A stretch of DNA of 64,000 nucleotides from a virus, in the IMG/VR virus record IMGVR_UViG_3300008108_004834, positions 1 to 64,000 of that record, one strand, 5' to 3'. Of this stretch, positions 343 through 26,309 are shown one piece after another. Made by a program: the position numbers and the translations under genes. Position 1 is the stretch's first letter; each line of letters begins with the position of its first letter. The notes beneath the pieces are model-generated. The model was not told the DNA's origin and searched no databases. It saw only the letters and a program-made list of their open reading frames with translations.

Positions 343-384
343 AGATGAGTGGTTGAGTTCTATTAAACGCATTTATTATGTAAA

Positions 385-804
385 ATGGTCATTTGTAAAT
401 CCTGCGGTAAAGAAGTTCCACAACACCCCAAAAAAGGTGGAAGAGCAAAACTTTATTGTGACGAAACTTGCCGCCAAAAGTGGCGTTACAGAAATGATCC
501 ATCTATTATGAATAGAAACACTTACACTGAACAAAAAGAAAGAGCATATTCCAACAAATGGAAAACACTTCAATATAAAGGTGGTAAGTGCCAACAATGT
601 GGCGAAGATAGACCAGCAACTTTATGCTTTCATCATAGAGATCCTTCTCAAAAAGAACTAAAACTTGATGGAAGATCTTTTGCAAATAGAAAATGGGAAA
701 CTATTAAAGAAGAAGTAGATAAATGCGATCTTCTTTGCCATAACTGTCATCATATATTACATTATGGCAACAGTTGGGGAGAGTTTCTACAAACGCTGGT
801 TTAG
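385..804 (+). CDS. HNH endonuclease (putative homing endonuclease) with N-terminal Zn finger
   Basis: CKSC...YCDETC; CQQC...FHHRDP...CDLLCHNCH motifs. Confidence 0.8.
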   Translation: MVICKSCGKEVPQHPKKGGRAKLYCDETCRQKWRYRNDPSIMNRNTYTEQKERAYSNKWKTLQYKGGKCQQCGEDRPATLCFHHRDPSQKELKLDGRSFANRKWETIKEEVDKCDLLCHNCHHILHYGNSWGEFLQTLV

Positions 805-868: not shown

Positions 869-897
869 TTGACAATCTCAGTGATATATACTATGAT
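869..897 (+). promoter_or_regulatory. sigma70-like promoter
   Basis: TTGACA-17nt-TATGAT. Confidence 0.65.
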
Positions 898-1061: not shown

Positions 1062-1083
1062 TTGGAGAGTAATCTCCACAATT

Positions 1084-1171
1084 GCCAGTCAGAACAGGTG
1101 TTCAGAGGAGTCTTATAAACTCTTTCCGCCAGATTAGCGGCTTTGGGAGGGTTCGATACCCTCGGCTGGTA
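1084..1171 (+). tRNA. non-canonical tRNA-Ile(TAT) with long variable arm and minimal D-arm
   Basis: GCCAGTC/GGCTGGT, GAAC-AGGT-GTTC, AGGAGT-CT-TAT-AA-ACTCTT, V-arm CCGC/GCGG, GAGGG-TTCGATA-CCCTC. Confidence 0.8.
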
Positions 1172-1280
1172 TTCCATCGGCAGATGGAAAGGCGAATTTG
1201 AGTGATGCATCACTTAGACAAGCCTGGAACAATTATCTAAGGTTCGATTCCCTGGCTCTGGTGAGTTAGATAAAAGTTCC
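1172..1280 (+). ncRNA. unassigned structured RNA: three stems, the last capped by T-loop then D-loop-like elements
   Basis: 1172-78/1183-89; 1190-93/1222-25 and 1197-1205/1210-18; 1226-30/1276-80 and 1233-40/1266-73 enclosing GG-TTCGATT-CC and TGGCTC-TGGT-GAG. Confidence 0.55.
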
Positions 1281-1290
1281 TGAATTTCTT

Positions 1291-1363
1291 ATCAGAGTAG
1301 CTCAATTGGTAGAGCAGCGGTCTCCAAAACTGAAGGTTGCAGGTTCAAGTCCTGTCTCTGGTG
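1291..1363 (+). tRNA. tRNA-Trp(CCA)
   Basis: cloverleaf, CT-CCA-AA, G73. Confidence 0.9.
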
Positions 1364-1367
1364 CCTT

Positions 1368-1759: not shown

Positions 1760-1781
1760 CTTGGAGTTTAACTCCAATTTA

Positions 1782-1949: not shown

Positions 1950-2021
1950 CCTCTGGTAGTCTATTGGTAAGGACAGGCAGACAATGCACTTGGAAACTAG
2001 GTTCGATTCCTAGACAGGGGA
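1950..2021 (+). ncRNA. tRNA-like element with aberrant anticodon arm
   Basis: acceptor CCTCTG/CAGGGG, D-arm GTCT/GGAC, T-arm CTAGG-TTCGATT-CCTAG; anticodon arm only GCA-GACAA-TGC. Confidence 0.6.
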
Positions 2022-26271: not shown

Positions 26272-26309
26272 CATACACGGGTTAAGGAATGTAACGATTT
26301 CTAATCCGT

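What the first reader, a model, noticed from the sequence alone, without database searches (positions are those of the whole stretch)
1172..1280. Unassigned structured RNA with a circularly permuted T-loop/D-loop module inside the tRNA array
Seen: ~110 nt between tRNA-Ile and tRNA-Trp folds into three consecutive stems. The third (GGAAC/GTTCC plus TTATCTAA/TTAGATAA) encloses GG-TTCGATT-CC, a canonical T-loop, followed by TGGCTC-TGGT-GAG, which is D-arm-like with the GG. The order is T then D, the reverse of tRNA, with no acceptor or anticodon. Established: YrlA Y RNAs have a permuted tRNA-like domain. Inference: this is a tRNA-elbow mimic or decoy released by tRNA processing, possibly against host anticodon nucleases or tRNA sensors.
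Basis: partly seen in the sequence, partly recalled or inferred. Interest (0 to 1): 0.72.

Follow-up and report, generated by a model that had tools for sequence, protein, structure and literature searches.

The report
Acceptor-less tRNA-elbow RNA in phage tRNA operon
The stretch is a real, conserved gene for a small non-coding RNA found only in the tRNA gene rows of phages; it displays just the folded "corner" of a tRNA on the end of a long stem, so it cannot read codons and most likely imitates tRNA towards a still unknown partner.

Summary
Observation confirmed. Window 1172-1290 (+) folds into three helices. The third carries GGTTCGATTCC (T hairpin), a 3-nt linker, then G-CTC-TGGT-GAG (a D hairpin whose 4-nt loop matches the Rfam tRNA-Sec consensus D loop).

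It is not a chance fold. The same 22-nt core occurs in 19 IMG/VR contigs and 50 metagenome contigs. In 185,579 prokaryote species genomes it occurs only 4 times, and those copies lack the stem. All 35 distinct copies with neighbouring tRNA genes lie on the tRNA strand, one copy per phage genome where checked. Their flanks form a stem whose sequence changes while pairing is kept.

Six window-type relatives, including the cultured cyanophage S-CRM01, support P1, P2 and P3 with compensatory changes.

No Rfam family matches. It fails the YrlA/Y RNA tests: no model hit, no Ro60 gene, no conserved Ro60 motif, no acceptor-like stem between T and D.

A second scaffold carries the same module on the long arm of a tRNA-like shell that lacks a T arm.

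Best reading: a non-decoding tRNA-elbow mimic cut out by tRNA processing, partner unknown. Extra finding: the P2 loop is self-complementary in every lineage, which hints at dimerisation.

This scan has noted similar permuted tRNA-elbow RNAs on other phage DNA. I found no paper describing this family.

The parts
1172..1189 (+). P1: 7-bp hairpin (TTCCATC / GATGGAA) with GGCA loop. It starts at the base after the discriminator of the upstream tRNA. Topological counterpart of the 7-bp acceptor-like stem of the type B scaffold, but capped.
   Evidence: Fold. Identical in 5 relatives and re-made with other letters in S-CRM01. 97.6% of cells paired.
1190..1225 (+). P2: 4-bp stem (AGGC/GCCT) enclosing a 7-bp hairpin (1199-1205 with 1210-1216). 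Its 4-nt loop TGCA (1206-1209) is invariant and self-complementary.
   Evidence: The fourth outer pair is C-G, U-A or G-U in relatives. 5 of 7 inner pairs change on both sides. P2 loops are palindromic in all scaffold lineages, against 8.3% of background hairpins.
1226..1280 (+). P3 arm: a 5-bp and an 8-bp helix separated by an AA/AA internal loop, carrying the T/D module at its tip.
   Evidence: Covariance model R1 hits 1229-1278 at 52.9 bits, E 1.6e-10. Family-wide, all 12 P3 pairs change on both sides.
1241..1251 (+). T hairpin GG-TTCGATT-CC: a canonical T loop on a 2-bp stem. The stem is 3-5 bp in some relatives.
   Evidence: Invariant in all family members. No variant with up to 2 changes exists in 1.59 Mb of held loci.
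1252..1254 (+). Linker CTG between the T and D hairpins (3 nt in the window-type relatives and type B members checked; the search pattern allowed 1-7). It replaces the acceptor-like stem-loop of YrlA.
1255..1265 (+). D-like hairpin G-CTC-TGGT-GAG: 3-bp stem and 4-nt loop UGGU holding the GG.
   Evidence: Invariant except the first G (A in L194 and L196) and loop position 4 (T or C). UGGU is the consensus D loop of Rfam tRNA-Sec.
1281..1290 (+). Single-stranded tail TGAATTTCTT up to the 5' end of tRNA-Trp. The T-rich pattern is kept in relatives. Possible counterpart of the TTTGT junction strand of type B.
1083..1171 (+). Flanking gene: non-canonical tRNA-Ile(UAU) with long variable arm and 4-nt D loop. 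Its 3' processing would create the 5' end of the RNA.
1291..1365 (+). Flanking gene: tRNA-Trp(CCA). RNase P cleavage at its 5' end would create the 3' end of the RNA.
869..897 (+). Promoter-like site (TTGACA-17-TATGAT, 11 of 12) that would drive the unit tRNA-Leu, tRNA-Leu, tRNA-Ile, this RNA, tRNA-Trp, tRNA-Arg. No terminator-like site before 1761.
   Evidence: This is a consensus match only.

Best explanation
Window 1172-1290 is a single-copy gene for a non-coding RNA of about 110-119 nt. It belongs to a phage-specific family.

Shown:
- It has three helices (P1, P2, P3), and they are kept by compensatory changes in relatives.
- At the tip of P3 sits an invariant module: a T hairpin (GGUUCGAUUCC), a short linker, then a D-like hairpin (CUC-UGGU-GAG).
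- This is a tRNA elbow written in permuted order (T before D), with no acceptor arm and no anticodon.
- The gene lies on the tRNA strand inside a tRNA operon, abutting the discriminator of the upstream tRNA and 10 nt before the next tRNA.

Inferred:
- The RNA is co-transcribed with the tRNAs.
- It is set free by the 3' cut of the upstream tRNA (RNase Z type) and the RNase P cut of the downstream tRNA.
- The GG of the UGGU loop docks on the T loop as G18/G19 do on U55/C56 in tRNA, giving a free-standing elbow on a rod.
- The RNA cannot be charged or decode. It works as a tRNA-elbow mimic that occupies or recruits a factor that reads the elbow. Candidates are tRNA-processing or tRNA-modifying enzymes, the ribosome, or a tRNA-directed defence or repair protein.
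- The self-complementary P2 loop may pair two copies.

The partner is unknown. It is not a phage-encoded Ro60.
For: Fold and helices.

No coding potential: only short ORFs of 20-39 aa lie within or across the element, and the one longer ORF (111 aa, minus strand, 878-1213) mostly overlaps the tRNA genes.

S-CRM01 homologue: identical core, all three stems re-made with other letters.

Six window-type sequences (alignment A3): 94% of cells paired, against 38-50% when the partners are slid. 12 pairs change on both sides, against 4.8 in shuffles.

Family distribution:
- Core present in 19 viral contigs and 50 metagenome contigs.
- Only 4 hits in 185,579 species genomes, and those lack the stem.
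- All 35 distinct copies with tRNAs within 1.5 kb lie on the tRNA strand; none is opposite.
- Flank complementarity: median z = -3.07, against about 0 for copies outside tRNA arrays.

Model R1 alignment of 39 distinct sequences: 12 of 12 P3 pairs change on both sides, in 124 cells against 37.9 in shuffles.

One copy per genome in G000, G001, G003, G004 and S-CRM01.

The core tolerates almost no change.

The UGGU loop equals the consensus D loop of Rfam tRNA-Sec.

Topology T, then D, inside a closing stem is the same as the Rfam YrlA consensus.

A 674-nt contig from a freshwater metatranscriptome library joins tRNA-Leu, an L196-like copy of the element, a tRNA where the window has tRNA-Trp, and tRNA-Arg.

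Promoter-like site upstream, with no terminator in between.
Against: The pairs of the T and D hairpins never vary. Covariation therefore neither supports nor refutes them or their tertiary contact.

The T stem is only 2 bp here and the D stem 3 bp. No 3-D model or probing was possible.

Transcription rests on one assembled contig from an RNA library. DNA carry-over cannot be excluded, and no ends can be read from contigs.

No partner was identified. Two phages with the module encode RtcB and one encodes a Ro60-like protein, but most encode neither, and none of these genes adjoins the module.

A low-depth contig of a relative has 17 other letters in place of the element, and S-SRM01 lacks it. 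It is therefore dispensable for some phages.

The covariation alignments are small (6 sequences) or fitted to the model (A8).
Confidence: 0.6

Rival explanations
1. It is a Y RNA of the YrlA kind. The T/D module would be the effector domain and another part would bind a Ro60 (Rsr) ring protein of the host or phage, tethering it to a nuclease.
For: The topology matches the Rfam YrlA consensus: a closing stem enclosing a T arm and then a D arm. YrlA is a proven tRNA mimic with conserved T and D stems that are proposed to bind an unknown factor (PMC4201824; 10.1101/312249). The window has GGCGAA at 1191-1196, which resembles the GNCGAA motif. One contig with the module (G006) encodes a TROVE/Ro60-like protein about 5.7 kb away on the same strand.
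Against: No YrlA hit even at E<=10. The motif is not kept: relatives have GGTAGA, GGGAAA and GGTGAA. The window-type RNA has no stem formed by its 5' and 3' ends. There is no acceptor-like stem-loop between T and D. There is no TROVE gene in complete S-CRM01, in G001 (96% complete), G003 (100%) or G009 (95%), nor in the window's record. The module is found in only 1 of 18 loci around phage Ro60 homologues, and that one is the contig already known. The control genome Synechococcus elongatus has no TROVE match.
Confidence: 0.08
2. It is a cis-acting part of the tRNA operon transcript rather than a trans-acting RNA. As a structured spacer it would guide or order RNase P / RNase Z / RNase E cuts, or block exonucleases, for the neighbouring tRNAs. 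A tRNA-like elbow would attract the processing enzymes.
For: It is always inside tRNA arrays on the tRNA strand, and usually ends 10-60 nt before the next tRNA. It directly abuts the upstream tRNA. RNase P is known to read the T/D elbow (general knowledge, not tested here).
Against: The downstream tRNA differs between phages (Trp, Tyr, Glu, Lys, Pro, Phe, Leu, Met, Asn), so it serves no particular tRNA. There is one copy per array of up to about 30 tRNAs. Most tRNAs in the same arrays do without it. The near-invariance of 22 nt and the elaborate P1/P2 scaffolds exceed what a spacer needs.
Confidence: 0.12
3. It is a decayed tRNA gene or the 3' half of one (a pseudogene or recombination scar) with no function of its own.
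For: CTCTGGTG (1256-1263) equals the 3' acceptor strand plus discriminator of the neighbouring tRNA-Trp. Matches to the core pattern outside tRNA arrays look like ordinary T arms followed by an acceptor strand, and have no P3 stem. The window holds another degenerate tRNA-like stretch at about 1950-2020.
Against: A scar would not keep three helices by compensatory change across phages as different as 38% and 68% GC. It would not keep 22 nt invariant. It would not stay single-copy and in a syntenic position, after tRNA-Leu(CAA) and before tRNA-Trp, in several cyanophage contigs.
Confidence: 0.04

Closest known systems
YrlA (Y RNA-like A, Rfam RF02553; Chen et al. 2014, PMC4201824; Wang et al. 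2018, 10.1101/312249)
   Same: A non-decoding tRNA mimic with circularly permuted order: a closing ('anticodon-like') stem encloses a T arm followed by a D arm. The T and D sequences are highly conserved. It has no free CCA end. It also occurs in phages that carry many tRNA genes. In YrlA the anticodon-like stem is kinked; here P3 has a purine-rich 2x2 internal loop.
   Different: YrlA has a 6-bp T stem, an acceptor-like stem-loop and a conserved UA between T and D, a standard D arm (4 bp, about 9-nt loop), a GNCGAA Ro60 motif, and a stem formed by the 5' and 3' ends. It lies within about 4 kb of a Ro60 gene. Here the T stem is 2 bp, a 3-nt linker replaces the acceptor-like stem, and the D hairpin has 3 bp and a 4-nt loop. 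No motif, no terminal stem and no Ro60 gene are present. The Rfam model does not match.
Phage T4 stable RNAs rnaC (species 1) and rnaD (species 2)
   Same: Small stable RNAs of unknown function encoded inside the tRNA gene cluster of a T4-type phage, on the tRNA strand, next to a homing-endonuclease gene. rnaC carries a canonical T arm.
   Different: No sequence relation: model R1 finds nothing in the T4 locus. In rnaC the T arm is followed by an acceptor-like 3' strand that pairs with the 5' end. There is no D hairpin after the T arm and no long arm capped by an elbow.
tRNA-Sec (Rfam RF01852): D arm with a 4-nt loop
   Same: The D-loop sequence UGGU is identical to the family consensus. By my own knowledge of published tRNA-Sec crystal structures, not checked here, a 4-nt D loop can still make the GG contacts with the T loop.
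   Different: tRNA-Sec has a 6-bp D stem, acceptor and anticodon arms, and normal gene order. The RNA here has none of these.
Type B scaffold of the same family (for example L007, L146, L156, L006, L165)
   Same: Identical T/D module on a long arm. A 7-bp stem, a P2 hairpin with a self-complementary loop and the long arm meet at one junction.
   Different: In type B the 7-bp stem is open, like an acceptor stem, and is followed by C or C-CCA. The chain closes through a TTTGT strand. In the window type the 7-bp stem is capped by GGCA and the chain is open at that junction strand. This is a circular permutation of the scaffold, which is my inference.

Membership tests
YrlA / bacterial Y RNA (RF02553) | Scores at or above the Rfam gathering threshold (69 bits) | tested here: not met
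   No YrlA match on 1165-1290 at E<=10, nor in the 1.1-kb scan. The YrlA hits fall on pairs of adjacent tRNAs, a known false positive. Relatives L005-L011 and L018 also give none over the element.
YrlA / bacterial Y RNA (RF02553) | Encoded near (about 4 kb), and on the strand of, a Ro60/TROVE gene | tested here: not met
   No TROVE in the window's 79.8-kb record (38% complete). None in complete S-CRM01 or in G001, G003, G009. Only G006 has one. The module is found near 1 of 18 phage Ro60 homologues.
YrlA / bacterial Y RNA (RF02553) | Conserved GNCGAAN0-1G motif near the 5' end, and a helix formed by the 5' and 3' ends (Ro60 site) | tested here: not met
   The window has GGCGAATTTG, without the G that the motif needs 0-1 nt after GAA. 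Relatives have GGTAGA, GGGAAA and GGTGAA. The ends of the window-type RNA do not pair.
YrlA / bacterial Y RNA (RF02553) | T stem-loop then D stem-loop enclosed by an anticodon-like stem | tested here: met
   compared with the consensus shown.
YrlA / bacterial Y RNA (RF02553) | Acceptor-like stem-loop and UA dinucleotide between T and D; standard D loop with a Levitt-pair partner | tested here: not met
   Only a 3-nt linker and a 4-nt D loop. The features are defined in PMC4201824 and 10.1101/312249.
Canonical tRNA (RF00005) | Acceptor stem made by free 5' and 3' ends, an anticodon arm, and order D - anticodon - T | tested here: not met
   ARAGORN and Rfam call nothing in 1172-1290. The order is T then D, with no anticodon loop.
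Permuted tRNA gene / two-piece tmRNA | T arm followed by a 3' acceptor strand (CCA end), then a 5' acceptor strand before the D region | tested here: not met
   3 nt lie between T and D, so no acceptor strands are present. No hit over the element to tmRNA, permuted tmRNA or cyano/alpha/beta tmRNA models.
New family defined here (T/D module on a stem, phage tRNA arrays) | Core GGTTCGATTCC - N(1-7) - [G/A]CTCTGG[T/C]GAG flanked by a covarying stem, on the tRNA strand of a phage tRNA array | tested here: met
   The window scores 52.9 bits with R1. Stem z = -4.76 against shuffled flanks. 13 tRNAs on the same strand and 0 opposite within 1.5 kb.
tRNA-elbow fold (functional likeness, not a family) | Tertiary pairing of the GG loop with the T loop | not testable with these tools
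   The nucleotides involved are invariant, so there is no covariation signal. No RNA 3-D prediction or probing data were available.

The most novel reading that the evidence does not exclude
The RNA is a self-pairing, two-headed tRNA-elbow decoy. Two copies would join through the self-complementary P2 loop (UGCA here; GGCC, GUGCAC or AGCU in other lineages). The dimer would present two rigidly spaced tRNA elbows, without acceptor or anticodon, to a dimeric or multi-site elbow reader such as RNase Z, RNase P, a tRNA-modifying enzyme, the ribosome or a tRNA-directed defence nuclease. The phage would thereby retune host tRNA handling or blunt a tRNA-targeting defence during infection. The invariant 22-nt module would then be a portable 'elbow cassette' that phages graft onto different scaffolds.
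Probability: 0.15. Interest if true: 0.85.

Novelty: new variant of a known kind. Interest (0 to 1): 0.64.

Why it matters
Phage tRNA arrays are normally annotated as lists of tRNAs. This result shows that they also hide a conserved gene that cannot decode, present as a single copy in the five genomes checked.

The RNA keeps only the tRNA corner, which many enzymes, the ribosome and some defence systems use to recognise tRNA.

If the module folds as proposed, it is the smallest natural free-standing tRNA elbow known to me: 25 nt on a stem. That would be useful for structural work, and as a probe for proteins that read the elbow.

Its restriction to phages, and its near-absence from 185,579 cellular genomes, points to a role in infection.

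One cultured phage-host pair, S-CRM01 with Synechococcus LC16, carries it. The question 'what do non-decoding tRNA look-alikes in phage tRNA rows do?' therefore becomes directly testable.

Tried and rejected
- Rfam, all 4227 families, at gathering and at E<=10: no match over the element.
- YrlA/Ro60: rejected for the reasons in the membership table.
- Partner search through phage genes: RtcB is present in 2 of 5 records but is neither adjacent nor on the same strand. A CCA-adding enzyme is present in 0 of 5. The window's record has no RtcB. No consistent partner emerged.
- Homology to T4 rnaC/rnaD: none.
- Protein-coding reading: only short ORFs (20-39 aa) lie within or across the element, and one 111-aa minus-strand ORF mostly overlaps the tRNA genes.
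- A looser core pattern (GYTC N3-6 GAR) gave mostly chance hits without a stem.
- Core matches outside tRNA arrays (L140-L143, L150, L166, L173 and others) are a different thing: an ordinary T arm plus an acceptor strand, with no P3.
- BLAST of the type B and type E elements against 50,697 isolated phage genomes: nothing. S-CRM01 is the only isolate found with the module.
- RNA-library runs hold only small shares of the stretch. Most covered parts are conserved tRNA pieces of other organisms. Uncovered parts prove nothing.
- The S-CRM01 genome paper (Dreher et al. 2011) is not held in the library, so I could not check whether it mentions this gap.
- Literature searches for tRNA-elbow mimics or tRNA-like RNAs in phage tRNA arrays found no description of this family.
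- The RNAcofold dimer energy favours an extended P2 duplex (-16.7 kcal/mol, against -8.4 for a loop mutant). Any hairpin shows part of this effect, so it is not evidence by itself.

Full report
**Setting.** The window is part of a 79.8-kb IMG/VR virus record. It is a T4-like cyanophage by its content: a PhotoRC-II element at 26298 and closest isolates S-SRM01 and S-CRM01. Bases 98-2097 are a one-strand array of tRNA genes. The finding lies between a non-canonical tRNA-Ile(UAU) at 1083-1171 and tRNA-Trp at 1291.

**The observation.** The MFE fold of 1165-1290 reproduces three helices at -40.6 kcal/mol, z = -2.95.
- P1: 1172-1178 with 1183-1189.
- P2: 1190-1193 with 1222-1225, enclosing a hairpin, 1199-1205 with 1210-1216.
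- P3: 1226-1230 with 1276-1280, and 1233-1240 with 1266-1273.
- Tip of P3: GGTTCGATTCC (1241-1251), CTG, then G-CTC-TGGT-GAG (1255-1265).

Only short ORFs of 20-39 aa lie within or across the element; the one longer ORF (111 aa, minus strand, 878-1213) mostly overlaps the tRNA genes. No Rfam family matches, even at E<=10 on the element alone.

**Relatives.** A weak BLAST hit led to S-CRM01. There, just upstream of tRNA-Tyr, the same 22 core letters are flanked by three stems built from different letters.

Exact-pattern scans found the core in:
- 19 IMG/VR contigs;
- 50 metagenome contigs;
- only 4 contigs among one genome each of 185,579 prokaryote species.

Of 54 distinct instances, 35 have tRNA genes within 1.5 kb. 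In every one of these, all the tRNAs are on the element's strand. For those 35 the two flanks of the core are complementary far beyond shuffled flanks: median z = -3.07, and 24 of 35 are below -2. Instances without a tRNA context behave like random sequence. They look like ordinary T arms followed by an acceptor strand.

A fuzzy search of 1.59 Mb of held loci found no core variants beyond two positions: G/A at the first D position and T/C in the loop.

The family is single-copy in each of five genomes checked. It is absent from S-SRM01.

**Covariation.**
- Six distinct window-type sequences (window, L013, L196, L194, L081, S-CRM01; A3): 94% of cells paired against 38-50% for slid partners. 12 pairs change on both sides, against 4.8 in shuffles. 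This includes 5 of 7 pairs of the P2 hairpin and 5 pairs of P3.
- Covariance model of the P3-plus-core module (R1) aligned to 39 distinct sequences: all 12 P3 pairs change on both sides, in 124 cells against 37.9 in shuffles. 88% are paired, against 44-53% slid. Caveat: this alignment is fitted to the model.
- The five pairs inside the T and D hairpins never vary. Their existence rests on likeness to tRNA, not on covariation.

**Anatomy and likeness to tRNA.**
- The T hairpin carries the canonical T-loop sequence.
- The D-like hairpin has the 4-nt loop UGGU, which is exactly the consensus D loop of Rfam's tRNA-Sec model.
- The 5' strand of P3 runs straight into the T hairpin. The D hairpin runs straight into the 3' strand of P3.
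- The topology is therefore that of a tRNA opened in the anticodon loop and closed at the acceptor end, with the acceptor arm reduced to 3 nt.
- This is the topology of the YrlA tRNA-like domain (consensus; PMC4201824; 10.1101/312249), minus its acceptor-like stem-loop.

**More than one scaffold.** The module is grafted onto several different scaffolds.

*Type B* (13 sequences, A6). The module caps a helix of about 19 bp that emerges, at the anticodon-arm position, from a tRNA-like shell. The shell is a 7-bp acceptor-like stem, 2 nt, a 4-bp hairpin at the D-arm position, 1 nt, the long arm, TTTGT, then the 3' acceptor strand and C or C-CCA. It has no T arm. The fold is supported by 93.8% pairing, and 5 of 7 acceptor-like pairs change on both sides.

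*Window type.* It has the same three helices in the same order, but its 7-bp stem is capped (GGCA loop) and the chain is open at the junction. I read it as a circular permutation of type B. This is an inference.

*Other scaffolds*. These include long closing stems (L005, L009, L011, L145), a group sharing GGATAGAC and GGAAC-N-GTGAAATCC motifs (L015, L018, L157, L193), and tandem T/D units (L016, L020).

**P2 loop.** In each lineage that has a P2 hairpin, its loop is self-complementary:
- UGCA: window type including S-CRM01 (there by hand reading, with one stem mismatch), and the L006 group;
- GGCC: the L007 group and L165;
- GUGCAC: L156, as a palindrome inside a 7-nt loop;
- AGCU: L171, on a weak stem.

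The 4-nt-loop scan itself flagged the window-type contigs and the L007, L006 and L165 groups. S-CRM01, L156 and L171 rest on my hand reading.

In the background, 8.3% of 4-nt-loop hairpins in all held loci have a palindromic loop. Loop positions 1 and 4 covary while the central GC stays. This is what a loop-loop homodimer would need. The cofold energies agree but are not decisive.

**Expression and processing.**
- A strong promoter-like site lies at 869-897, and no terminator-like site follows before 1761.
- P1 begins at the base after the discriminator of the upstream tRNA in the window, L013 and L081.
- The tail ends at the first base of tRNA-Trp.
- The usual 3' and 5' tRNA-processing cuts would therefore release an RNA of 119 nt. 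This is an inference.
- One freshwater metatranscriptome library yielded a 674-nt contig (depth about 20) that joins tRNA-Leu, an L196-like copy of the element, a tRNA where the window has tRNA-Trp, and tRNA-Arg. This fits co-transcription but does not exclude DNA carry-over.
- Another low-depth contig has 17 other letters in place of the element.

**Is it a Y RNA?** The evidence says no.
- No YrlA model hit.
- The GNCGAA motif is not conserved.
- No terminal stem.
- No TROVE gene in the window's record, in complete S-CRM01, or in three near-complete phage genomes with the module.
- One contig (G006) does encode a Ro60-like protein. However, among 18 phage loci around homologues of that protein, the module occurs only in that same contig.
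- The control genome Synechococcus elongatus has no TROVE match.
- The host of the window phage could not be searched.

**Mechanism.**

Shown: a conserved, covarying, phage-specific RNA gene in tRNA operons, with an invariant T/D module, that cannot decode.

Inferred: the module folds as a free-standing tRNA elbow, and the RNA acts by being recognised as one.

The near-invariance of the core across phages from 38% to 68% GC suggests one of two things: a partner common to many bacteria, or a very tight self-fold. I could not identify the partner. RtcB (2 of 5 records) and Ro60 (1 of 11 records) are sporadic and unlinked.

**Earlier notes of this scan.** Other windows yielded permuted or anticodon-less tRNA look-alikes in phage tRNA rows, including an acceptor-less one in a crAss-like phage. 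I treated these as leads only. They agree that such RNAs are widespread and undescribed.

**Verdict.** This is a new variant of the tRNA-mimic kind whose nearest described relative is YrlA. It is not a member of that family.

Noticed in passing
window 1083-1171 (+): Non-canonical tRNA-Ile(UAU). It has an 8-bp acceptor stem, a 4-bp D stem with the 4-nt loop AGGU, a 6-7-bp anticodon stem and a long variable arm. ARAGORN misses it and it falls below the tRNA thresholds. It scores 34.3 bits on the tRNA-Sec model. Its S-SRM01 homologue is called tRNA-Ile(tat). Relatives L013, L081 and L196 lack it at this position.
   Followed up: partly
window 1950-2020 (+): tRNA-like cloverleaf that neither ARAGORN nor Rfam calls. 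It has a 6-bp acceptor stem, a normal D arm and a normal T arm (CTAGG-TTCGATT-CCTAG), but only a stub where the anticodon arm should be. It may be another non-decoding tRNA look-alike, or a pseudogene.
   Followed up: partly
window 1206-1209; L007, L006, L165, L156, L171: The loop of the P2 hairpin is self-complementary in each scaffold lineage checked (UGCA, GGCC, GUGCAC, AGCU), against 8.3% of background hairpins. The outer loop positions covary. This may be a dimerisation loop.
   Followed up: partly
window 377-803 (+): An ORF inside the tRNA array is 86.7% identical at the DNA level to a gene annotated as HNH endonuclease in S-SRM01. T4 likewise has a homing endonuclease inside its tRNA cluster.
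   Followed up: no
L018 / L199 (IMGVR_UViG_3300007169_000088): A 93-kb phage contig holds, on one strand, a large tRNA array, a tmRNA, a near-threshold GOLLD RNA (138 bits), a 516-aa TROVE/Ro60-like gene and a type E copy of the T/D module. No bona fide YrlA was found. L007 also has a partial GOLLD hit.
   Followed up: partly
L015, L018, L157, L160, L167, L193: A further scaffold ('type E') around the same module shares GGATAGAC on the 5' side and GGAAC-N(4-5)-GTGA(A/G)ATC on the 3' side, inside a covarying closing stem.
   Followed up: no
L016, L020, L161, L168: Two T-arm plus GGTCTGG/GCTCTGG units lie in tandem, with full 5-bp T stems, directly after a tRNA and without a P3 stem. This is a different arrangement of the same two motifs.
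   Followed up: no
L002:1252-1419 (S-CRM01 129237-129404): 168 unannotated bases between tRNA-Pro and the element contain another T-arm-like hairpin (TTCAGG-TTCGACT-CCTGAA). This may be a further unrecognised tRNA-like gene.
   Followed up: no
window 1063-1078 and 1761-1777 (+): Short similar hairpins (TGGAGAG..CTCCA and TTGGAGTTTAACTCCAA) follow tRNA genes. The second is terminator-like.
   Followed up: no
window 1175-1290, run X18: A low-depth RNA-library contig of a relative joins the end of the tRNA-Ile-like gene to tRNA-Trp through 17 unrelated letters. Some relatives therefore lack the element.
   Followed up: no
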